Shown piece by piece: positions 6,801 to 14,715 of a stretch of 64,000 nucleotides of DNA. The notes below the pieces were generated by a model. That model was not told the origin of the DNA and made no database searches. It saw only the letters and a list, made by a program, of their open reading frames with translations. The stretch's first letter is position 1; the number at the start of each line of letters is the position of its first letter. This DNA comes from a virus (lineage: Duplodnaviria; Heunggongvirae; Uroviricota; Caudoviricetes): IMG/VR virus record IMGVR_UViG_2595698945_000001. The stretch is one strand, 5' to 3'. Position numbers and translations under genes: made by a program.

Positions 6801-7159
6801 TGTCCATGAGAATGGGAGACCTTGCAAAGCGCAAAGAACCGGAAGAGCCGGTAAAAAGCAGCACCCCAATGCGCCAGCCAGTCAGACCGCAGGGGCGTCC
6901 GACTCGTGGGAAAGAGAAGATTAAGAGCCGCACAATGTCGCTGGAAGACGAGTACTTCGATCTGCTGGAGATGATGAAGTTCATCCCTCGTTTCGAGAAG
7001 TTCACCCGTTCTGACGTGATTCGTGCAGCCATTTTCCATCTGGCAGAGAAGTCGCCGCAGGAAATCGAGGACATCGTGAAACTGAACGAGGCGATCACCG
7101 CTGCCGACGTCACGATGCGCACCGATGAAATCAAACGCGAGTTGATGAAGAAAGGTTGA
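6800..7159 (+). CDS. ParG-like ribbon-helix-helix centromere-binding protein
   Basis: Overlapping start. Basic N-terminal tail plus the RHH-like segment KSRTMSLEDEYFDLLE. Partner of the small ParA. Confidence 0.55.
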   Translation: MSMRMGDLAKRKEPEEPVKSSTPMRQPVRPQGRPTRGKEKIKSRTMSLEDEYFDLLEMMKFIPRFEKFTRSDVIRAAIFHLAEKSPQEIEDIVKLNEAITAADVTMRTDEIKRELMKKG

Positions 7160-7160
7160 T

Positions 7161-7805
7161 ATGGCTAAATTTTTGTCTAGGCATTTAGGTTGGTATATTG
7201 GCTTAGCGTTGGCCATATTAGCCGCAATTGTGTTTGGCAAAGTTATCGGCTTGCTAGGAATTTCAAACCAAGGGGTTATTTCTGTTGCTGGTTCAATGAT
7301 AGGGATGATATGTAGTGGATTATACCGCAACACTTTAAAATATATTAAATCCGAAGAATACAGATTAAAAATACAAGAGTATAAAGAGAAACGTGACGAA
7401 AGTGTCAAGAAAGAGCGAGAGGCATTAAAGAGGAAGACAATCGTCGAACTTTATCTCTTGAATGAAAAGAAAACCTTCATCAAGGTTAAGCTTCTCTCTG
7501 TGATGATGATATTTTTTGGCGCAGCGCTGAGCTACTTCTTCGTCTATAGCTCTATCGTTACCATCACTGGAATTGTAGCCTTTGTTTTACTGGAGCTAAA
7601 AGAGAGAGTTTTGGCTTATCGTATAGCTAAAGGCTTTTTCGGTAATAATAGTACTGAAGCTATCCAGTTACTTAAATTTATTGAGACCAATATCGACAAC
7701 ATCGATACTGGTAGCAGTGGTGGCAAACGTAAGATATTGAATGACCCTGTTTTAGAAGAAATCCCAAATGAGAATTTGGGAAAGGGGGCTTTGGATGCCA
7801 GATAA
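7161..7805 (+). CDS. Membrane protein (4 predicted TM), low-GC cargo
   Basis: Hydrophobic helices at both ends with a Lys/Glu-rich coiled segment between. AT-rich codon usage unlike the flanking genes. Confidence 0.45.
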   Translation: MAKFLSRHLGWYIGLALAILAAIVFGKVIGLLGISNQGVISVAGSMIGMICSGLYRNTLKYIKSEEYRLKIQEYKEKRDESVKKEREALKRKTIVELYLLNEKKTFIKVKLLSVMMIFFGAALSYFFVYSSIVTITGIVAFVLLELKERVLAYRIAKGFFGNNSTEAIQLLKFIETNIDNIDTGSSGGKRKILNDPVLEEIPNENLGKGALDAR

Positions 7806-8205
7806 AGATCTGACAAGCAGATATCTCAACAGGGCAATGGATATTTTGCTATTAGGCTATCCACTTAGAACTGTTTTTGGGTCACTTATCGGTGCTCTAC
7901 TGTGGGTGGTGCTTCATATTTTTACACCATTCTTGCTTACCAAAGGCTTTGTTGTTGACTGGATATATAACGCTGGTTGTTTTGTTGTTGGCGTTTTGAT
8001 CATGAATACCAAAACAATCATTGATGTGTTCAATGGTGATGCAATCAGCGAGAAGTTTGGCAGTTCTTTGAGGCATATTGATAAGCGTCTAGATTTGTCG
8101 AATGAACAAAAACGATATTTAATTAACAAGTTATTGAGTGATCATATAGCGAACCTTACTGACAACCAAGTCAAGGAAGTTGAACAGAGAGTTACGGATA
8201 AGTAA
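7795..8205 (+). CDS. Membrane protein, low-GC cargo
   Basis: ATG at 7795 after a G-rich RBS. 2-3 TM helices. Overlaps the upstream gene end. Confidence 0.4.
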   Translation: MPDKDLTSRYLNRAMDILLLGYPLRTVFGSLIGALLWVVLHIFTPFLLTKGFVVDWIYNAGCFVVGVLIMNTKTIIDVFNGDAISEKFGSSLRHIDKRLDLSNEQKRYLINKLLSDHIANLTDNQVKEVEQRVTDK

Positions 8206-8314
8206 ATTTAACCAATGCTATTAGAACAGGTTGTTAATATTTTTAATGGCCTGTTTGTTGGTTAAGATAATTACGTGTGCCATTCTGTGTTGCAATATAA
8301 AATAGTGGATAAAA

Positions 8315-9073
8315 ATGCTATACAAATACGTAGGGCATGAAGACCCAAACGAATTAATCAAAATTCTCAAATTCTTCATCGAAGATGGAACCATCCGAGC
8401 CACCAGACCACACGACTTCAATGACCCTGCCGAATTCAAAGCAAAATTTAGTTTCGACGCCACGATACCGGAGAAGCGTGTCCGATATCATGAGATGTGG
8501 CCTGGCAAAAGCGACGATGACGGTGAGAACTGGTTAAGAGGGCGAACCAAAAACGCCGAAGAGTTTGACGCCTATATGCTGCGCGGAAATCTGCTTTTGA
8601 ATACCGGTGTGATATGCCTCACCAGAACTGACACTAATTACCTGATGTGGTCGCATTACGCCAGCTCCCACTCTGGATTTTGCATAGGGTTTGATGACGC
8701 TATTGTGGAAGCGCTGGATGACCAACACACAGCGTTAAACGGTGATGTGGAGTACGTGAAATCGCCGCCTGAAGTGAACTTCTATACCGCTGATGTGTAC
8801 GACATTGTCAGAGCCATCTTTCTGCACAAGGGTGAGAGCTGGAAGTACGAAGAAGAGTTCCGGATTATCTCTGAGCTGCCAGGGCTTAAGAAGTTCGACA
8901 CCTCGCTCATCAAAGAGATTTCTATCGGATGCAAACCCTATCCAGAGCTGGAAAGTTTTGCCCGTGAACTGCTGGACAGCAATCTGGCCGTGTACAAAAT
9001 GCTTTGCCCGACTGACTCGTACCAACTGAAGCGTGTGGAGCTGGACAAGAACCTTTCTTTTCAAGGTTACTAG
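8315..9073 (+). CDS. DUF2971-family protein
   Basis: Signature MWSHYASSHSGFCIGF typical of DUF2971. Low-GC. Confidence 0.5.
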   Translation: MLYKYVGHEDPNELIKILKFFIEDGTIRATRPHDFNDPAEFKAKFSFDATIPEKRVRYHEMWPGKSDDDGENWLRGRTKNAEEFDAYMLRGNLLLNTGVICLTRTDTNYLMWSHYASSHSGFCIGFDDAIVEALDDQHTALNGDVEYVKSPPEVNFYTADVYDIVRAIFLHKGESWKYEEEFRIISELPGLKKFDTSLIKEISIGCKPYPELESFARELLDSNLAVYKMLCPTDSYQLKRVELDKNLSFQGY

Positions 9074-9268: not shown

Positions 9269-9994
9269 ATGAGCCAGATCTTCTTTAACACTATTAACAA
9301 CGACCAGTACGACTTCATGACCGAGTGGGACACCACAGTCATGGACAAGTGGGTGGCCGAGAATATTGGGCTGTCACGCTGCAAGGATGAGGCTGAGTTG
9401 TTCGAGACAAAGTGGTTTGATTACCGCGACATGCACCCGCTTATGGCCACATGCCTTTTCACTGAGGCATACAAACGCCAGTACTCATACATCATGCTGT
9501 CGCATGGCCGCGAACACTATGAAACGGCCCCATTCACAACCGGTTTGAAACGTGTGCCGTATCAGGAGCTGTCAACGGCGAACAAAACGTCTCTCTGGAA
9601 AGCACGCCAGTTTGCCGACCAGTACTGCTGCTCTTATGACTACTTCATTTCTACCGTTCTTTCCGCAGCTGCACGCCGTCTGTGGGGCAAATTACCGCGC
9701 CCCCAGCATCTCTGGCAGCCCGAGCTGATCGAGATATTCGAAGAGAAGTTAGCCAAACGCGCTGTAACCCGTCTGGATGACTCTCTGGTGAGTTTTAAGC
9801 ATCTGGGAGACATGCAGCACGACCCGATTCAAGAACGCTATTTTGAGTGGGTTCTGGAGCGTCTGCGTGGCATTACCCGAGACAAGCGCGTCCGCATCAT
9901 CTTCTCCGCTGTCTGGTTGATGGAAATCGTGCCTGAGCGTGTGATTTACGCGCACTTCCCGGAAGAACTGGAAGAAGCACGGCGATTCTGTTGA
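9269..9994 (+). CDS. Hypothetical protein (upstream of the helicase; possible helicase loader)
   Basis: 241-aa ORF. No motif recognised. Confidence 0.45.
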   Translation: MSQIFFNTINNDQYDFMTEWDTTVMDKWVAENIGLSRCKDEAELFETKWFDYRDMHPLMATCLFTEAYKRQYSYIMLSHGREHYETAPFTTGLKRVPYQELSTANKTSLWKARQFADQYCCSYDYFISTVLSAAARRLWGKLPRPQHLWQPELIEIFEEKLAKRAVTRLDDSLVSFKHLGDMQHDPIQERYFEWVLERLRGITRDKRVRIIFSAVWLMEIVPERVIYAHFPEELEEARRFC

Positions 9995-10054
9995 TCCCCT
10001 ATCTGGCTTTTTTAGTATTAGAAAACAAATTATTTAAGCACCAAAGGAAAGCAC

Positions 10055-11395
10055 ATGACCGAACTTTGCCACACAGGACGAGGGTTGTCTGAAGAGTTCG
10101 ACGACGACTTCCAGAATCGACTCGCAGCCTACTTCTGTCGTGACCATGAATTTCTGACTCGCGCCGGTGATCTGGTTGCGCCAAACCAGTTCTCCAATGC
10201 GGCCAACGCCATTCTGGTGAACATGGTGTCGGGCTACTACAGAATGTATAAGAGCGCACCATCATCGTCGGCCATACTCGACATGCTCAAACGCGCCAAA
10301 CGCGATAAGACGATCCGCGAAGAGCTGTTCCCCGACGTCGTTGAGGCGTTTAAGCGGATTCTCGCTGAGAAACTGTCAGACACGGCGTACATGGTCGACC
10401 AGGTCGCGACGTTTGCCAAAAGCGTAGCGTTCGACGACGCGCTGATTAAAGCGGCTGAGATGAAAGAGAAGGGCGATTTCCAGGGCGCGATGGCAATCAT
10501 GGCCAAAGTCCAGCAAATCGGCTCTAACGAAGCGACCGGCATTTACGATTACTTCTCTGAATCAGCAGAGCGTTACAAGGCGCGTGAGTACGAAGCGTCC
10601 GACGATTACGTGCCAAACAGCATCACAACGGGTCTACCGCTGCTCGACAAGCTGCTTTACCAGAAAGGCTGGGCAAAGCGTGAGATGGTGCTGTTCATGG
10701 GCTTCGCGAAGTCTGGTAAATCGACGGCGATGGGTGAGTTCTCCATCAACGCTACGCTTGCCGGTTACAACGTCCTGTATCTGTCGCTGGAAGTTCACAC
10801 CTCCATTCTGTCAGATCGCTTTGACGCCCGTTTGTCTGAGACCGAAATGTCCAAGCTGGTGGAGCGCCGCGACGACGTCCATCGCAAACTGGCAGAGCTG
10901 GGCGCGACGAAAGGCGTGGGGAGCTTGTGGATTGTTGAGCGACCGTCCGGAAGCATGTCGCCTGCAGATCTGGATCGTATGTTGGGCTGCATGAAAGCCA
11001 ATGGCATGATCCCCGACATGGTCGTGGTCGACTACGCCGACCTGATGCGTGCCAGCTACGACCTCCGCGACGACCGCGCCAACATTCGCAGCATCTACAC
11101 TGACCTGCGTGCGCTGTACGACAAACACAACGTTGCCGGCATCACTGCATCGCAGACTAACAGGGAAGGTGGTGCTTCTGAGGTGGCCACAATGATGCAC
11201 GCAGCGGACAATATCGAGAAGGTGCGTATCGCTGACCTCGTTATCACTATCAACAAAACGGAAGAGGAAGAAGCGAAAGGCGAAGCGCGTCTTTACTTCG
11301 CTGGTTCACGTAACCAGAAAGGCGGCGTAAGCATCCGCGTTAAGCAGAACCTCGAACAAATGCGATTCATCGAACGCATTATGGACGTCCTATAA
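10055..11395 (+). CDS. DnaB-family replicative DNA helicase
   Basis: RecA-fold C-terminal domain with Walker A GFAKSGKST, Walker B VVVDYADLM and an SQTNREG (DnaB SQLNR-like) motif. Confidence 0.7.
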   Translation: MTELCHTGRGLSEEFDDDFQNRLAAYFCRDHEFLTRAGDLVAPNQFSNAANAILVNMVSGYYRMYKSAPSSSAILDMLKRAKRDKTIREELFPDVVEAFKRILAEKLSDTAYMVDQVATFAKSVAFDDALIKAAEMKEKGDFQGAMAIMAKVQQIGSNEATGIYDYFSESAERYKAREYEASDDYVPNSITTGLPLLDKLLYQKGWAKREMVLFMGFAKSGKSTAMGEFSINATLAGYNVLYLSLEVHTSILSDRFDARLSETEMSKLVERRDDVHRKLAELGATKGVGSLWIVERPSGSMSPADLDRMLGCMKANGMIPDMVVVDYADLMRASYDLRDDRANIRSIYTDLRALYDKHNVAGITASQTNREGGASEVATMMHAADNIEKVRIADLVITINKTEEEEAKGEARLYFAGSRNQKGGVSIRVKQNLEQMRFIERIMDVL

Positions 11396-11542
11396 AAAGA
11401 AGGCGTGGAAAGAACCTCCACGCCTGTTTCCATCAGAGAAAAACTTCCTTTTGCCAACCACAAAAGAAAAACACATGAGCCTTTATGGTATTCAAATACT
11501 GAGGCTTATCAAGATATTGCCTGCAAAAAGTAGGGTTAAGCA

Positions 11543-12658
11543 ATGAGTGACCTCAAAGAACTTTTGACTGAGCTGGATTTTGAACAATGGCTCGATATGG
11601 AGGGGATCATCTACCGTCGTGGTGGTGTCAGCACTCGTGGACGTGAGGTGAACATCAAGGAGTGCCCGGTATGCGGCAGCTCAAACTGGAAGGTATATTT
11701 CAACCTGACCAATGGCGTCGGCAAATGCTTTGCTGGTGATCATCCCGAAGAGATTCAGTTCAATAAGCTGGTCTTCCTCAAGCACTACAGCGGCAAATCC
11801 CGTCGCGATTTTGAAGAGTACGTCCAGAACGCGCTGATCTCACAAGGTTGGGCGCCGAAGAAGGAAGAGATCGTGCTGGCCAGCAAGGTTGAACTCGAAG
11901 GGCCAGTAGCTCTCCCGCGCCATTACGAACTCCCCATTGACGGTCGTCTTCCTGATTATCTGGTGGAGCGCCAGATTTCACCTGAGCTGGCCAAATACTT
12001 TGATCTGCGTTACTGCGTTGAAGGCAAGCACGCATACGTCGATCCGTACACAGACCAGGTCAAAGGACAAGTGTTCGACATGCGCATCCTGATACCAGTT
12101 TACGATCTTGATGGCGTGATGAAGACCTTCCAGGGGCGTGACATTACCGGCAATGCTGAACGCCGTTATCTCTTCCCGATGCAGTTGCCGGCGTCGGGTA
12201 AGTTTCTCTACAACGGCCACAACGCAGTCGGGAAACAAACAGTCGTTGTGTGTGAAGGGGCATTTGACGTAATGGGCGTGAAGCGAGCCGTTTTCGACGA
12301 AGAGACGCTGCGGGATTACGTAGAGCCGATTGGCACGTTCGGGATGCACTTGTCCGGAAATATGAATGAGGACGCTGAAGATCAGTTGGGTGCGTTCCTG
12401 ACGCTCAAGGCGCGTGGATTACGTAACATCATCATGATGTGGGATAGCGAGAAGCAAGCGATCCGCAACACCATGTCGGCGGCCAAACGTCTCGCCAGCA
12501 TCGGACTAAATGTCAAAGTGGCCTGTCTGGGCGAGGAAGGTCTCGACCCTGGCGACGCGACGCCAGAGCAGATCCTCAAAGCCTACTATCGTGCAAAGCC
12601 CTACACCAAACAGCTTGAGCTGCAAAGTAAGGTGCTGGGTATCAAGGCTCTGGTGTAA
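11543..12658 (+). CDS. DNA primase (zinc-ribbon plus TOPRIM)
   Basis: CPVCGSS...CFAGDH zinc-binding motif. TOPRIM VVVCEGAFDVMG. Confidence 0.7.
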   Translation: MSDLKELLTELDFEQWLDMEGIIYRRGGVSTRGREVNIKECPVCGSSNWKVYFNLTNGVGKCFAGDHPEEIQFNKLVFLKHYSGKSRRDFEEYVQNALISQGWAPKKEEIVLASKVELEGPVALPRHYELPIDGRLPDYLVERQISPELAKYFDLRYCVEGKHAYVDPYTDQVKGQVFDMRILIPVYDLDGVMKTFQGRDITGNAERRYLFPMQLPASGKFLYNGHNAVGKQTVVVCEGAFDVMGVKRAVFDEETLRDYVEPIGTFGMHLSGNMNEDAEDQLGAFLTLKARGLRNIIMMWDSEKQAIRNTMSAAKRLASIGLNVKVACLGEEGLDPGDATPEQILKAYYRAKPYTKQLELQSKVLGIKALV

Positions 12659-12659
12659 A

Positions 12660-13697
12660 TTAATTCGAAGCGGTCAGACGACGGAGAACATGGGAGCAGA
12701 TGTCGTCAATCGCTTGGATAAACTCTACCGAGTTAAACGAGCCATCATCGTTCGGTATTAAGCTTTTAGGGTCGAAATTTTTCCAACCATCACTTTCGCT
12801 ATAGGTAAAGCTCTTTGAGTCGATATGCGAAAATACCTCGATAGTGCTATATGGTTCGCCATCCATCCCTTCACCCGTACGAGCACTAATGTAGAATGGC
12901 GCAATAATGTCTGACATAGCTCCCTCGTTTTTCACGATTCGAACTCTGAGACCACCAGCTTCTAATTTTTGCCGAATGGAAGTTCGGCAAAATTCATCAA
13001 AAAATTCATTACCTTCGATGATAATAACATCATAGCGTTGTTTGGAATCAATGCCCAAAACACTAGGTAAAAAATCATTACTATGGAAGAGATGCCCTAA
13101 AAGGGACTTTAACTCTTCAGTAAAGTTGAATATCCGATTCTTTTCTGGATGAGTGTTGATAACCTCATAAATGAGACCTGAAGCGATGAGTTTGTTGAGC
13201 GATCGTAGATTTAGTCCATTTTTTTGGGAGGTGAGATCTACTTGCGCAGCTGCCGCTGATTTAAAGCCTCTGATGTGTGAGTTTGTCGTAATGTAGAGCT
13301 TGCGAGCATACTCAATATCGAAGCAGGTTAGCTCGCTCAATGTATGGATGAAAAACATTTTTTCATCGTCGCAAAGACTGCTTCGAGCCAGACTGACCGT
13401 TAGGCGGATATAGTATTCAGTTTTTTTATCTTCATCATCAAGCACCAGCTTTTTGACCAACGCTGAGAAATGTTCTCTGGATATATCAACCTCATCTTCG
13501 CAGATTTCACCTATTCCCATTATGTAGTGATTGAATCGGTCACGGCACATTTCAGCGTTTATCTCTGAAAACAGCTTAAACATTTGCTCTGCCGCCTGTA
13601 TGTGAGGCCCTGCAATTGGCACCATTTTGGCAAACTCCAAAAAAGCATCTTTCAATCCCTTTCGGTGTTGCGTCACACCTTTAGATAACGTTGTCAT
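12660..13697 (-). CDS. Hypothetical protein, low-GC, antisense insertion in the replication module
   Basis: 345-aa ORF on the opposite strand. AT-rich. The C-terminal segment YDVIIIEGNEFF...GGLRVRIVKNEG has a TIR-like pattern (speculative). Confidence 0.45.
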   Translation of the reverse strand: MTTLSKGVTQHRKGLKDAFLEFAKMVPIAGPHIQAAEQMFKLFSEINAEMCRDRFNHYIMGIGEICEDEVDISREHFSALVKKLVLDDEDKKTEYYIRLTVSLARSSLCDDEKMFFIHTLSELTCFDIEYARKLYITTNSHIRGFKSAAAAQVDLTSQKNGLNLRSLNKLIASGLIYEVINTHPEKNRIFNFTEELKSLLGHLFHSNDFLPSVLGIDSKQRYDVIIIEGNEFFDEFCRTSIRQKLEAGGLRVRIVKNEGAMSDIIAPFYISARTGEGMDGEPYSTIEVFSHIDSKSFTYSESDGWKNFDPKSLIPNDDGSFNSVEFIQAIDDICSHVLRRLTASN

Positions 13698-13878
13698 AGT
13701 CGTAAGCCTAGTAGGACTTCATGATTTAATTATTTGAAATCATATAAAAATGCCCCGAAGGCGACAACGGCCAGGTCAGTGTACTTATCCATTAAATGAA
13801 ACCATGCCGCCAATGATAAGTAGATACATACTTATTTTTCTGTAAGAATATGCGCGAAGAAGGAATTGAGGAACCTTT

Positions 13879-14673
13879 ATGAAAGCAGATATTCAGAAGT
13901 CCGTTACCGAAATCATCGACAAATCAGGCGTAGAAATTGATACAGAAGAGCGCCAGAACATTATCGATGAGGCGATCCAAACTGCGCTGGAACACATCGC
14001 CACGTCTGTGAGTACCGCACCTCTTGGGGAAGGCTCGAAATACATGCGGGTCTGGGTTCGTTTTGGAGAGTCCCCAGAGCTGCCTGGTGTTAAGCAGAAA
14101 CGCGCGGCACTCGTCACGTTCACTCGCGAGATGAAAGATGCAACGATAGAAATACGCGCTGGTGCATGGTACGACGGCCGCGTTGTCTACACCAATCAGG
14201 CGGTGTGTGATGAAGGTGAACGGTTTGAGGATATTGTCGACGCGACTCTTCGCGCAATCAAAGGTAGAGCCGGTGTAGATGATGATCCGTCTATCGCGGC
14301 GTTCCTGAGCATTGTCGAACTACCTGAAGTTATTGAACGCGTTACCGATCTGACAACCCCACCTGGTTTGCTGGAGTTGGTGGTCAGTGGCGATACCAAA
14401 AAAGCCGTTGAACGCATTCGAGAGGTGGAATACGGCATCATCTGCGATATGTGCCGCAGCGACTTAGACCTGGTGCGCATCATTGTCGATGCGGGTCAGG
14501 CATGTGATGGTGTGCTCGCCAGTTTTGCAGGGCAGGTGGCACGTCTGGCCAACGAGCTGCCGATGATTAAACAGGAGGCAAAATCCTACGCCGTCCACCA
14601 TGCCAACGATTTACTGGAGCCATACCGGTTCGAAGCCGCTCAGGACAAAATGACTGGCTGGGCGACCTGGTAA
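13879..14673 (+). CDS. Hypothetical protein
   Basis: RBS GAGGAA. Acidic 264-aa protein. Confidence 0.45.
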   Translation: MKADIQKSVTEIIDKSGVEIDTEERQNIIDEAIQTALEHIATSVSTAPLGEGSKYMRVWVRFGESPELPGVKQKRAALVTFTREMKDATIEIRAGAWYDGRVVYTNQAVCDEGERFEDIVDATLRAIKGRAGVDDDPSIAAFLSIVELPEVIERVTDLTTPPGLLELVVSGDTKKAVERIREVEYGIICDMCRSDLDLVRIIVDAGQACDGVLASFAGQVARLANELPMIKQEAKSYAVHHANDLLEPYRFEAAQDKMTGWATW

Positions 14674-14690
14674 GCCTCGATAAACCATTT

Positions 14691-14715
14691 AGCCCCCTAG
14701 TGGGGCTTTTTTAAA
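14691..14715 (+). terminator. Rho-independent terminator
   Basis: agccccctagtggggctttttt. Confidence 0.7.

What the first reader, a model, noticed from the sequence alone, without database searches (positions are those of the whole stretch)
12660..13878. Antisense, low-GC 345-aa gene wedged between the primase and downstream replication genes; C-terminus has a TIR-like pattern
It is the only long minus-strand gene in a 20-kb plus-strand replication block. It is AT-rich and flanked by a ~180-bp AT-rich promoter region. The last ~130 aa show a betaA-alphaA-betaB pattern (YDVIIIEGNEFFDEFCRTSIRQKLEAGGLRVRIVKNEGAMSD) reminiscent of bacterial TIR/SEFIR domains. The N-terminal ~200 aa are uncharacterised. 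This is a candidate moron with a defence or anti-defence role.
Basis: inference. Interest (0 to 1): 0.65.

Follow-up and report, generated by a model that had tools for sequence, protein, structure and literature searches.

The report
Abi-alpha-like cargo gene in phage-plasmid SSU5
The antisense, low-GC gene next to the primase of Salmonella phage-plasmid SSU5 is real and is an optional, self-promoted cargo gene, but it is not TIR-like: it is a distant relative of the prophage abortive-infection protein Abi-alpha, carrying a fast-evolving, swappable C-terminal domain of a different fold, and probably protects the lysogen against competing phages or mobile elements.

Summary
The window is Salmonella phage SSU5. 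The ORF is confirmed: 12660-13697, minus strand, 345 aa (SSU5_041). Its GC is 0.417 against 0.52-0.55 in the flanks, and it is the only minus-strand gene in about 19 kb.

It is a 1.15-kb cassette (about 12662-13811) with its own conserved sigma-70-type promoter. About 12% of SSU5-like phage-plasmids carry it, including pHCM2 of S. Typhi. In others the slot is empty or holds unrelated antisense cargo.

Residues about 60-215 (helical region plus MarR-like winged helix) are remotely homologous to Abi_alpha/DUF4393. The Pfam score is sub-threshold (25-26 bits, cut-off 29). hhalign against bona fide phage DUF4393 proteins gives 82% probability, E 1e-5.

The N-terminal part is conserved (omega 0.06-0.17). 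The C-terminal domain diverges fast (omega 0.21-0.49) and is recombinationally swapped. Relatives are solo cargo on plasmids, ICEs and phage-plasmids.

Best reading: a lysogeny-expressed Abi-alpha-like exclusion protein. Its function is untested.

The parts
12662..13811 (-). Accessory cassette (insert relative to empty-site relatives): the ORF plus 114 bp of its own upstream DNA
   Evidence: The empty site of E. cloacae plasmid P1 (L020) aligns to the window up to 12661 and resumes at 13812. About 11 bp stand in place of the cassette. Phage Cyrano is likewise empty.
12660..13697 (-). CDS SSU5_041, 345 aa (stop codon 12660-12662). It converges on the primase gene, whose stop codon ends at 12658.
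   Evidence: Matches PHROG 22938, unknown function, E 7e-192. Under purifying selection.
13278..13697 (-). N-terminal all-helical region, aa 1-140. Residues 1-30 are low confidence; helices at 31-65, 74-86, 90-105, 110-122 and 125-139.
   Evidence: AlphaFold model built from 66 sequences, pLDDT 85.7. 73-85% identity among phage-plasmid alleles. From about residue 60 it falls inside the Abi_alpha-like match.
13410..13439 (-). Family signature DDExxKxxxY (D87 D88 E89 K92 Y96)
   Evidence: K92 and Y96 are invariant, and D87/E89 are at least 89% conserved, in 66 sequences with 19% mean column identity.
13053..13277 (-). MarR/SlyA-like winged helix plus linker helices, aa 141-215 (H148-156, H161-172, wing E176-178/E190-192, H194-203)
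   Evidence: Family profile against PDB: 4mnu_A MarR/SlyA E 4.7e-5. An independent subset gives E 0.015. Model. L170 and G174 are 95-98% conserved.
12663..13052 (-). Variable C-terminal alpha/beta domain, aa 216-345 (b1-a1-b2-a2-b3-b4-b5-a3).
13739..13767 (-). Sigma-70-type promoter of the cassette (TTGTCG-17-TATGAT; family consensus GTTGTAGC-N17-TATATGATTTC)
   Evidence: Consensus scan. Both hexamer regions are invariant in 9 loci, including loci with unrelated upstream DNA.
13721..13743 (.). Inverted repeat ATGATTT-N9-AAATCAT overlapping the -10 element; possible operator
   Evidence: Both arms are kept with a variable spacer in the 4 SSU5-type loci, but the second arm is absent in the 5 pHCM2-type loci. 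Significance is uncertain.
13705..13710 (-). Ribosome-binding site (AGG/AAGG) upstream of the M1 ATG at 13695-13697
   Evidence: Read directly from the sequence and conserved in 9 loci.
13816..13835 (.). Backbone palindrome ATAAGTA-N6-TACTTAT upstream of SSU5_042. It is NOT part of the cassette and marks the right-hand backbone flank.
   Evidence: It is also present in the empty sites of E. cloacae P1 and Cyrano.

Best explanation
SSU5_041 is a single-gene, self-promoted accessory ('moron') cassette. It most likely encodes an Abi-alpha-like exclusion or abortive-infection protein.

Proposed working:
1. In the plasmid-prophage state the host RNA polymerase transcribes the gene from its own conserved sigma-70 promoter, antisense to the lytic replication operon.
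2. The conserved N-terminal module is the common core that executes the response or builds the oligomer. It comprises the helical region with the invariant DDExxKxxxY motif plus the winged helix, and it is homologous to the Abi_alpha/DUF4393 core.
3. The fast-evolving, recombinationally exchanged C-terminal alpha/beta domain is the specificity or sensor module that recognises a component of an invading phage or rival mobile element.
4. Recognition triggers a response that blocks the invader, at the cost of the infected cell.

Shown here: cassette structure, presence/absence, promoter conservation, three-domain architecture, remote homology to Abi_alpha, domain-discordant evolution, and solo carriage on many kinds of mobile element.

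Inferred, not shown: expression in lysogeny, the defence phenotype, the sensor/effector division of labour, and the molecular target.
For: Accessory nature:
- The cassette is absent from E. cloacae P1 and phage Cyrano although their flanks are 93-99.8% identical.
- About 87 of about 714 SSU5-like plasmid records carry it, and 1 of 10 SSU5-like phages.
- Other elements carry unrelated antisense cargo in the same slot: a Sel1-repeat protein and a 388-aa hypothetical protein.
- Foreign composition: GC 0.417 against about 0.53.
- Its own promoter and ribosome-binding site are invariant in 9 loci.

Abi_alpha link:
- 8 of 66 family members, and later scans of further members, hit PF14337 over the same region.
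- The family consensus gives E 1.8e-5 covering profile positions 2-173 of 196, and it is the only Pfam family below E 0.01.
- hhalign of the family core against 8 bona fide phage DUF4393 proteins gives probability 82%, E 1e-5, 84 columns. Against phiNM1 gp17 alone it gives E 8.4e-5.
- gp17-identical proteins are annotated DUF4393 in RefSeq.

Shared genomic habit:
- DUF4393 genes of Staphylococcus and Streptococcus phages are also solo and antisense to their neighbours. In phiNM1 and StauST398-1 the gene sits next to the replication initiator.

Published behaviour of the family:
- Abi-alpha gives abortive infection with premature lysis (PMC6356687).
- A DUF4393 protein makes up 42% of prophage protein in phiNM1 lysogens (bioRxiv 10.1101/2025.10.23.684294).
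- DUF4393 genes are the second most enriched targets of programmed gene-altering inversions (PMC9881135). This parallels the swappable C-terminal module seen here.

Module evolution:
- The N-terminal part is 73-85% identical between alleles, the C-terminal part 26-69%, with discordant relationships.
- pHCM2 against UViG9 gives N-terminal dS 0.32 but saturated C-terminal dS.
- DNA identity to pHCM2 stops at about residue 175.

Contexts of distant members:
- ICEs, Rep3 and IncF plasmids, and integrase islands, beside AIPR, DUF4145, a YobI-ATPase gene, a methylase/HEF_HK/Response_reg_2 trio, toxin-antitoxin and partition genes. There is never a conserved partner gene.
Against: - There is no experimental evidence for any phenotype.
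- The query itself has no Abi_alpha hit. All Pfam scores are below the gathering threshold (at most 26.4 bits against 29).
- hhalign probability is only 59-82% and covers 84 columns. That region excludes the family's invariant DDExxKxxxY motif and the whole C-terminal domain.
- PADLOC models find nothing. A published survey found no defence systems in pHCM2-like elements (bioRxiv 10.1101/2025.09.12.675607). This is expected if the family is unrecognised, but it gives no support either.
- The mechanism of Abi-alpha itself is unknown, so 'works like Abi-alpha' says little about mechanism.
- Two distant members sit next to the anti-restriction gene ardC. This fits an anti-defence or establishment role equally well.
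- C-terminal omega is below 1, so positive selection is not demonstrated.
Confidence: 0.45

Rival explanations
1. It is a one-component transcription regulator. A MarR-like winged helix binds DNA, and the C-terminal alpha/beta domain (a fold class common in ligand or partner sensors) modulates binding. Its targets would be its own promoter, the divergent SSU5_042 replication operon, or host genes.
For: - MarR/SlyA similarity of residues about 128-216 (E 4.7e-5; E 0.015 with an independent subset).
- Winged-helix topology in the model.
- An inverted repeat overlaps the -10 element of its own promoter.
- In SSU5 itself the winged-helix segment is basic (pI 9.3).
- Two distant homologues lie in operons with KfrA-type DNA-binding genes.
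- The position is divergent from the SSU5_042-ligase operon.
Against: - Across the family the winged-helix segment is acidic (median pI 5.06, net charge about -3). No basic residue is conserved in the wing, and only about 50% K/R at one recognition-helix position.
- The inverted repeat is kept in only 4 of 9 loci, although the winged helix is nearly identical in all of them.
- The gene is dispensable. Near-identical backbones work without it, or with unrelated cargo in the slot, so it cannot be a core regulator of replication or lysogeny.
- No cognate regulated gene travels with it.
Confidence: 0.2
2. It is an anti-defence or establishment factor. It would help the mobile element overcome host immunity or stabilise itself on entry, with the variable C-terminal domain tracking variable host defence proteins.
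For: - It is carried exclusively on mobile elements.
- Two distant members lie directly upstream of ardC anti-restriction genes in conjugative or integrative elements.
- Others lie among partition, toxin-antitoxin and KfrA maintenance genes.
- A fast-evolving, recombining C-terminal domain fits an arms race in either direction.
Against: - The only homology signal is to a defence family, Abi_alpha.
- Anti-defence genes of phages are normally expressed early in the lytic or entry programme. This gene is antisense to the early/replication operon and has a host-type constitutive-looking promoter.
- In Lelliottia, the Klebsiella plasmid and Rep3 plasmids it neighbours defence-type genes.
Confidence: 0.15
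3. This is the first reader's hypothesis: the C-terminal about 130 aa form a TIR/SEFIR-like NADase domain of a defence protein.
For: - The beta-alpha-beta start of the domain is real.
Against: - No TIR-type profile matched in Pfam or PADLOC, for the query or for 66 family members.
- The topology has three consecutive antiparallel strands (268-276, 282-290, 301-308) instead of alternating beta-alpha units.
- No glutamate is conserved. The only position with at least 60% acidic residues is D223 in strand 1.
- The domain is the least conserved part of the protein, which is unlike a catalytic domain.
Confidence: 0.02

Closest known systems
Abi-alpha / Abi_alpha (Pfam PF14337, formerly DUF4393). 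Founder is EF2833 of E. faecalis V583 prophage 6 (PMC6356687). Bona fide phage members include phiNM1 gp17.
   Same: - A helical core followed by a winged-helix-like segment, alignable over about 84-150 residues, including the motif S-I-x-N-L-x-R-x-G-L-L.
- A solo gene on a prophage or mobile element.
- Antisense to neighbouring lytic or replication genes.
- Variable distal part, by analogy with the inversion-targeted DUF4393 genes (PMC9881135).
   Different: - Scores are below the Pfam threshold, and the query itself is not detected.
- It has its own invariant DDExxKxxxY signature, which lies outside the aligned region.
- It is about 345-390 aa, against about 190-300 aa for the DUF4393 proteins compared here.
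- It carries an extra, roughly 130-aa C-terminal alpha/beta domain of anticodon-binding-domain-like topology. The Gram-positive phage proteins compared here do not have it.
- It occurs on plasmids, ICEs and phage-plasmids rather than Firmicute prophages. The identified hosts are mostly Enterobacterales.
MarR/SlyA family winged-helix regulators (for example PDB 4mnu, 1lj9)
   Same: Sequence-profile similarity over the helix-turn-helix and wing (E 4.7e-5), and the same secondary-structure order in the model.
   Different: - There is no MarR Pfam hit.
- The segment is acidic, with poorly conserved DNA-contact positions across the family.
- It is embedded between a large helical N-domain and an unrelated C-domain rather than forming a compact MarR dimer.
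Anticodon-binding-domain-like alpha/beta fold: class II aaRS anticodon-binding domains, Pol gamma-B, TolB N-domain, diol dehydratase reactivase beta. Also the CadC periplasmic subdomain and HpaA.
   Different: Sequence identity is only 6-18% and there is no Pfam match. This is a similarity of fold only, with no implied tRNA binding. The domain is the most variable part of the protein.
Other variable-cargo slots (defence hotspots) of temperate phages and phage-plasmids
   Same: A fixed backbone position between the primase and SSU5_042 is empty or holds different unrelated antisense genes in otherwise near-identical elements.
   Different: This particular slot in SSU5-like elements was not described in the phage-plasmid papers I read. 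None of its occupants is a recognised defence gene.

Membership tests
TIR domain proteins (bacterial TIR/SEFIR, Thoeris ThsB, TIR-STING and similar) | Significant match to a TIR-type sequence profile | tested here: not met
   No TIR family matched in Pfam at E<=10 for the query or at E<=0.01 for 66 family members. There is no PADLOC model hit for the query, and none of the few isolated weak PADLOC matches among the 66 members (6 models, 1 member each) has a TIR-type name.
TIR domain proteins (bacterial TIR/SEFIR, Thoeris ThsB, TIR-STING and similar) | Flavodoxin-like fold with five parallel strands alternating with helices | tested here: not met
TIR domain proteins (bacterial TIR/SEFIR, Thoeris ThsB, TIR-STING and similar) | Conserved catalytic glutamate | tested here: not met
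   No C-domain column has at least 40% Glu. The only column with at least 60% acidic residues is D223, in strand 1.
TIR domain proteins (bacterial TIR/SEFIR, Thoeris ThsB, TIR-STING and similar) | NAD+ cleavage activity | not testable with these tools
   This needs a biochemical assay.
Abi_alpha (PF14337 / DUF4393) | Score at or above the Pfam gathering threshold (29 bits) | tested here: not met
   The query has no hit at E<=10. The best member, P0064, scores 26.4 bits and the family consensus 25.3 bits. Other members score 13-20 bits.
Abi_alpha (PF14337 / DUF4393) | Homology of the core to bona fide DUF4393 proteins by profile-profile comparison | tested here: met
   hhalign of the family core (A4) against 8 phage DUF4393 proteins (A5): probability 82%, E 1e-5, 84 columns. 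The full family (A2) against A5: 59%, E 9.4e-5. The support is moderate, not decisive.
Abi_alpha (PF14337 / DUF4393) | Solo gene on a prophage or mobile element, oriented against the lytic genes | tested here: met
   SSU5_041 is the only minus-strand gene in 19 kb and is antisense in all 10 SSU5-like loci examined. The same arrangement is seen for DUF4393 genes of Staphylococcus and Streptococcus phages. No conserved partner gene appears in 15 or more contexts.
Abi_alpha (PF14337 / DUF4393) | Abortive-infection phenotype (loss of plating with death or premature lysis of infected cells) | not testable with these tools
   The phenotype is defined experimentally in PMC6356687. No data exist for this family.
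MarR-type winged-helix transcription regulators | Winged helix-turn-helix with MarR-like sequence | tested here: met
   PDB profile search: 4mnu_A E 4.7e-5 and 1lj9_A E 0.063, repeated with a subset. The model shows helix-helix-hairpin.
MarR-type winged-helix transcription regulators | Conserved basic DNA-contact surface (recognition helix and wing) | tested here: not met
   The segment has a median pI of 5.06 across 66 sequences. Wing positions have at most 31% K/R, and the recognition helix at most 50% K/R at one position.
MarR-type winged-helix transcription regulators | Palindromic operator in its own promoter, conserved with the protein | tested here: inconclusive
   ATGATTT-N9-AAATCAT overlaps the -10 element in SSU5. 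The second arm is conserved in only 4 of 9 loci.
Class II aaRS anticodon-binding domain (HGTP_anticodon) superfamily | Sequence-level homology as opposed to fold resemblance | tested here: not met

The most novel reading that the evidence does not exclude
The family is a previously unrecognised branch of an Abi-alpha superfamily of mobile-element immunity proteins. It is built as a conserved core plus an exchangeable sensor domain, and new specificities arise by recombinational swapping of the C-terminal module between alleles. This would be the recombination counterpart of the programmed inversions reported for DUF4393 genes.

The head-on placement against the replication operon would then be functional. 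Lytic-operon transcription would silence the gene, so the element's own lytic replication does not trigger abortive infection. The same arrangement is shared with Staphylococcus phage DUF4393 genes.
Probability: 0.2. Interest if true: 0.6.

Novelty: new variant of a known kind. Interest (0 to 1): 0.4.

Why it matters
If the reading is right, several things follow.
- pHCM2 of Salmonella Typhi and roughly one in eight SSU5-like phage-plasmids of clinical Enterobacteriaceae carry a phage or mobile-element exclusion gene that current defence-finding tools miss.
- The mechanism of Abi-alpha is unknown. This family would give a genetically tractable E. coli/Salmonella model, with natural alleles that share the core but differ in the C-terminal module. 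That makes the sensor-versus-effector question directly testable by domain swaps.
- It also marks a variable cargo slot directly downstream of the primase in SSU5-like elements. Two other uncharacterised antisense genes occupy that slot in other elements.

Tried and rejected
- Direct sequence searches of the query against Pfam, PADLOC and PDB gave nothing useful. NCBIfam and PADLOC scans of 66 members gave only scattered chance-level hits.
- BFVD Foldseek gave no match with E<=0.001. The AFDB50 library was unavailable.
- The second antisense gene of pHCM2 (WP_001238819) is not a paralogue.
- The alternative occupants of the slot (Klebsiella 388-aa protein, E. coli Sel1-repeat protein) are unrelated to this family.
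- phiNM1 gp03, my first guess for the DUF4393 protein, shows no similarity. gp17 is the right one.
- No Rfam family lies in or around the cassette.
- No intrinsic terminator is predicted between the convergent primase and SSU5_041.
- No transmembrane segment is present: maximum Kyte-Doolittle score 0.86. A direct holin-like membrane role is therefore unlikely.
- No target-site duplication or transposase is at the cassette ends. Acquisition by flank homology is more likely than transposition.
- A PD-(D/E)xK nuclease reading of the DDExxK motif was considered and rejected. The motif lies at the junction of two helices (residues 74-86 and 90-105) in an all-helical region, not in a beta-sheet core.
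Full report
**Identity of the window and check of the observation**

The window is Salmonella phage SSU5 (NC_018843), a phage-plasmid: bases 11500-14700 match it at 100% identity. It corresponds to SSU5_041, 'hypothetical protein'. RefSeq starts the protein 24 codons further in. The longer start is the better call, because the ATG, an AAGG ribosome-binding site and the first residues are conserved in nine loci.

It is the only minus-strand feature among 28 annotated features across 19.2 kb. Its GC is 0.417 (GC3 0.425), against 0.52-0.55 (GC3 0.55-0.68) for the helicase, primase, SSU5_042, SSU5_043 and ligase genes. Only 2.1% of equal-sized windows in the 64 kb are as low. The 181-bp upstream intergenic region has GC 0.376. 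dN/dS well below 1 in both halves shows that the gene is real and under selection.

**The gene is an optional cassette in a variable slot**

An Enterobacter cloacae phage-plasmid has helicase, primase, SSU5_042, SSU5_043 and ligase proteins 97-99.8% identical to those of SSU5, yet it lacks the gene. Its DNA aligns to the window up to 12661 and again from 13812. Phage Cyrano is also empty at this position. The insert is thus about 12662-13811: the ORF plus 114 bp of its own upstream DNA. The remaining 67 bp of the intergenic region, including the palindrome ATAAGTA-N6-TACTTAT, belong to the backbone.

Other SSU5-like elements carry unrelated antisense genes in the same slot: a Sel1-repeat protein in E. 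coli pGD31-F25 and a 388-aa hypothetical protein in a Klebsiella plasmid.

About 714 plasmid records have a primase at least 80% identical to SSU5's. Only about 87 have a full-length copy of this gene, and only SSU5 among the ten SSU5-like phages in the phage collection has it. Where it is present, as in pHCM2 of S. Typhi and several IMG/VR contigs, it is always in the same slot and antisense.

The cassette brings its own promoter. GTTGTAGC, then 17 nt, then TATATGATTTC is invariant in nine loci. These include Lelliottia and Cedecea loci whose further upstream DNA is unrelated.

**Architecture**

With 12 close homologues the AlphaFold model was mediocre (pLDDT 69). With a 66-sequence alignment drawn from an exhaustive HMM search it became confident (pLDDT 85.7, pTM 0.79). 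That search found only 80 cluster representatives among 1.84 billion, nearly all 330-390 aa.

The protein has three parts.
- **Residues 1 to about 140: helical.** This part contains the family signature DDExxKxxxY. K92 and Y96 are invariant across 66 sequences that average 19% column identity.
- **Residues about 141-215: winged helix.** The family profile matches MarR/SlyA regulators in the PDB at E 4.7e-5, and again with an independent subset.
- **Residues 216-345: alpha/beta domain** with the order b-a-b-a-b-b-b-a.

**The TIR hypothesis**

- No TIR profile matches in Pfam or PADLOC, for the query or for 66 relatives.
- The last three strands are joined by short loops and so form an antiparallel meander, not the alternating parallel units of a TIR fold.
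- No glutamate is conserved in the domain, and it is the least conserved part of the protein.

**Relationship to Abi_alpha**

The query has no significant Pfam hit; its only listed match, DUF6086, is weak (E 0.071, 13.7 bits against a cut-off of 31.9). However, eight of the 66 family members individually match Abi_alpha (PF14337, formerly DUF4393) over the same region. The family's HMM consensus matches it at E 1.8e-5, covering profile positions 2-173 of 196, and it is the only family below E 0.01. All scores (at most 26.4 bits) are below the 29-bit gathering threshold, so formal membership is not met.

I built an independent test. phiNM1 gp17 is a bona fide DUF4393 protein, because identical proteins are so annotated in RefSeq. 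Together with seven diverse phage homologues it gave a reference alignment. hhalign of the family core against this alignment gives 82% probability and E 1e-5 over 84 columns. That corresponds to SSU5 residues about 98-182, meaning three helices and the winged helix, including the motif SIxNLxRxGLL. The full family alignment gives 59% and E 9.4e-5.

I conclude that the conserved core is a remote homologue of the Abi_alpha core. The DDExxKxxxY signature and the C-terminal domain are specific to this family.

The genomic habit is shared. DUF4393 genes in Staphylococcus and Streptococcus phages are solo and antisense to their neighbours. In phiNM1 and StauST398-1 the gene lies directly beside the replication initiator.

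**What is known about Abi_alpha**

- Abi-alpha (EF2833, E. faecalis V583 prophage 6) confers abortive infection with premature lysis against a picovirus. Its mechanism is unknown (PMC6356687).
- In phiNM1 lysogens the DUF4393 protein is the most abundant prophage protein (bioRxiv 10.1101/2025.10.23.684294).
- DUF4393 genes are the second most enriched class of targets of programmed gene-altering inversions (PMC9881135). This implies an exchangeable specificity segment.
- A 2025 survey found no recognised defence system in pHCM2-like elements (bioRxiv 10.1101/2025.09.12.675607). That fits with this gene being invisible to current tools.

**Evolutionary pattern**

Among phage-plasmid alleles, residues 1-180 are 73-85% identical but residues 216-345 only 26-69% identical. 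The two parts give discordant relationships. For example, P0007 is 92% identical to the pHCM2 type in the N-terminal part and 35% in the C-terminal part.

DNA similarity between SSU5 and pHCM2 (81.6%) covers the promoter and codons 1 to about 175, then vanishes. For pHCM2 against UViG9, the N-terminal dS is 0.32 while the C-terminal dS is saturated. This is direct evidence for recombinational exchange of the distal module.

Omega is 0.06-0.17 in the N-terminal part and 0.21-0.49 in the C-terminal part. In L015 the flanking replication proteins are 98-99.8% identical to those of SSU5, while this protein is 54% identical. Alleles are therefore replaced much faster than the backbone diverges.

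**Contexts of more distant members**

| Member or locus | Context |
|---|---|
| Klebsiella IncFIA/IncR plasmid | operon with a KfrA-type gene; an AIPR gene downstream |
| ETEC p948 | next to RelE/ParE |
| Lelliottia chromosome | next to a C5-methylase, HATPase/HEF_HK and Response_reg_2 trio |
| Cedecea plasmid | between ParAB and UmuDC |
| P0014 | PAPI-type ICE backbone, again antisense |
| P0013, P0015 | conjugative or integrative elements, next to ArdC |
| P0019, P0016 | Rep3 plasmids, next to DUF2726/DUF559, a YobI-ATPase gene, DUF4145 and KfrA |
| P0017 | near CcdAB |
| P0040, P0023 | next to ORF6N genes |

No partner gene is conserved. This is a solo cargo gene of mobile elements.

**Mechanistic reading and rivals**

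I favour, at about 45%, an Abi-alpha-like exclusion or abortive-infection protein expressed in the plasmid-prophage state. The conserved helical and winged-helix core would be the common executing or oligomerising module. The exchangeable C-terminal domain would be the specificity module.

Two further observations are relevant, though their interpretation is inference.
- The gene is convergent with the primase gene, with 1 bp between the stop codons and no predicted terminator.
- Lytic-operon transcription could therefore silence it, and its own transcription could run antisense into the primase gene.

The rivals are as follows.
- **One-component regulator (about 20%).** The winged helix and an inverted repeat over the -10 element favour it. 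Against it are the acidic, poorly conserved DNA-contact surface across the family, the patchy conservation of the repeat and the dispensability of the gene.
- **Anti-defence or establishment factor (about 15%).** The ArdC neighbourhoods favour it. The orientation, the promoter type and the only homology signal count against it.
- **TIR NADase (about 2%).**

**Verdict**

The 'moron, defence or anti-defence' idea is supported as an inference.

The gene belongs to a small, unannotated family (PHROG 22938, no Pfam family). It is best described as a new variant within the Abi_alpha kind, with a distinct signature motif and an added, swappable C-terminal domain.

Interest is moderate. It is not surprising to a specialist that a phage-plasmid carries an Abi-like moron. 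Even so, it is undetected by current tools, it is present on pHCM2, and its natural modular alleles offer a tractable route into the unknown Abi-alpha mechanism.

Noticed in passing
window 6900-8790: This is the only other stretch of the window as GC-poor as the target. It spans SSU5_034-036 and the start of the DUF2971 gene (8315-9073). The DUF2971 protein is only 25-51% identical in many otherwise near-identical relatives. Cyrano has a RelE/ParE toxin in the corresponding region. It looks like a second variable accessory region.
   Followed up: partly
L002 (pHCM2) 9737-10792; corresponds to the gap between window 9073 and 9269: pHCM2 carries another antisense 351-aa gene (WP_001238819) between the DUF2971 gene and the SSU5_038 homologue, which SSU5 lacks. 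It has no Pfam hit and is not a paralogue of SSU5_041. It looks like a second antisense cargo slot in the replication block.
   Followed up: partly
window 13816-13835: The backbone palindrome ATAAGTA-N6-TACTTAT lies upstream of SSU5_042 and is conserved in empty-site relatives and, slightly diverged, in Cyrano. A third half-site, TACTTATC, lies at 13782-13789 inside the cassette. It may be an operator or promoter element of the SSU5_042-ligase operon.
   Followed up: partly
L018 5108-6253 and 6486-6899; L019 5162-6328: These are the alternative occupants of the post-primase slot. One is a Sel1-repeat protein (381 aa, antisense), whose N-terminal residues look hydrophobic in the hhalign printout (not tested for a signal peptide), together with a 137-aa ORF in E. 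coli pGD31-F25. The other is a 388-aa antisense protein without any Pfam hit in a Klebsiella phage-plasmid. Their functions are unknown.
   Followed up: partly
L006 9284-15090 (Lelliottia sp. WAP21 chromosome): Directly downstream of the Lelliottia homologue lies a three-gene set: Response_reg_2 (593 aa), HATPase_c_3/HEF_HK/HATPase_c (1061 aa) and a C-5 cytosine methylase. It looks like a conflict or restriction-type system.
   Followed up: no
window 12660-13625 versus 12660-13697: The RefSeq annotation of SSU5_041 starts at an internal Met, giving 321 aa. Conservation of the upstream ATG, the ribosome-binding site and residues 1-24 indicates that the 345-aa form is correct.
   Followed up: yes
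plasmid hits H91, LT904853 and P0012: Some SSU5-like elements carry truncated copies (residues 1-216, 1-280, or a 191-aa product). This suggests occasional decay of the gene.
   Followed up: no
L035 829-1686 (phiNM1 gp17) and L036-L042: Bona fide DUF4393 genes of Staphylococcus and Streptococcus phages are consistently antisense to both neighbours. In phiNM1 and StauST398-1 they abut the replication initiator gene. The papers I read did not comment on this placement.
   Followed up: partly
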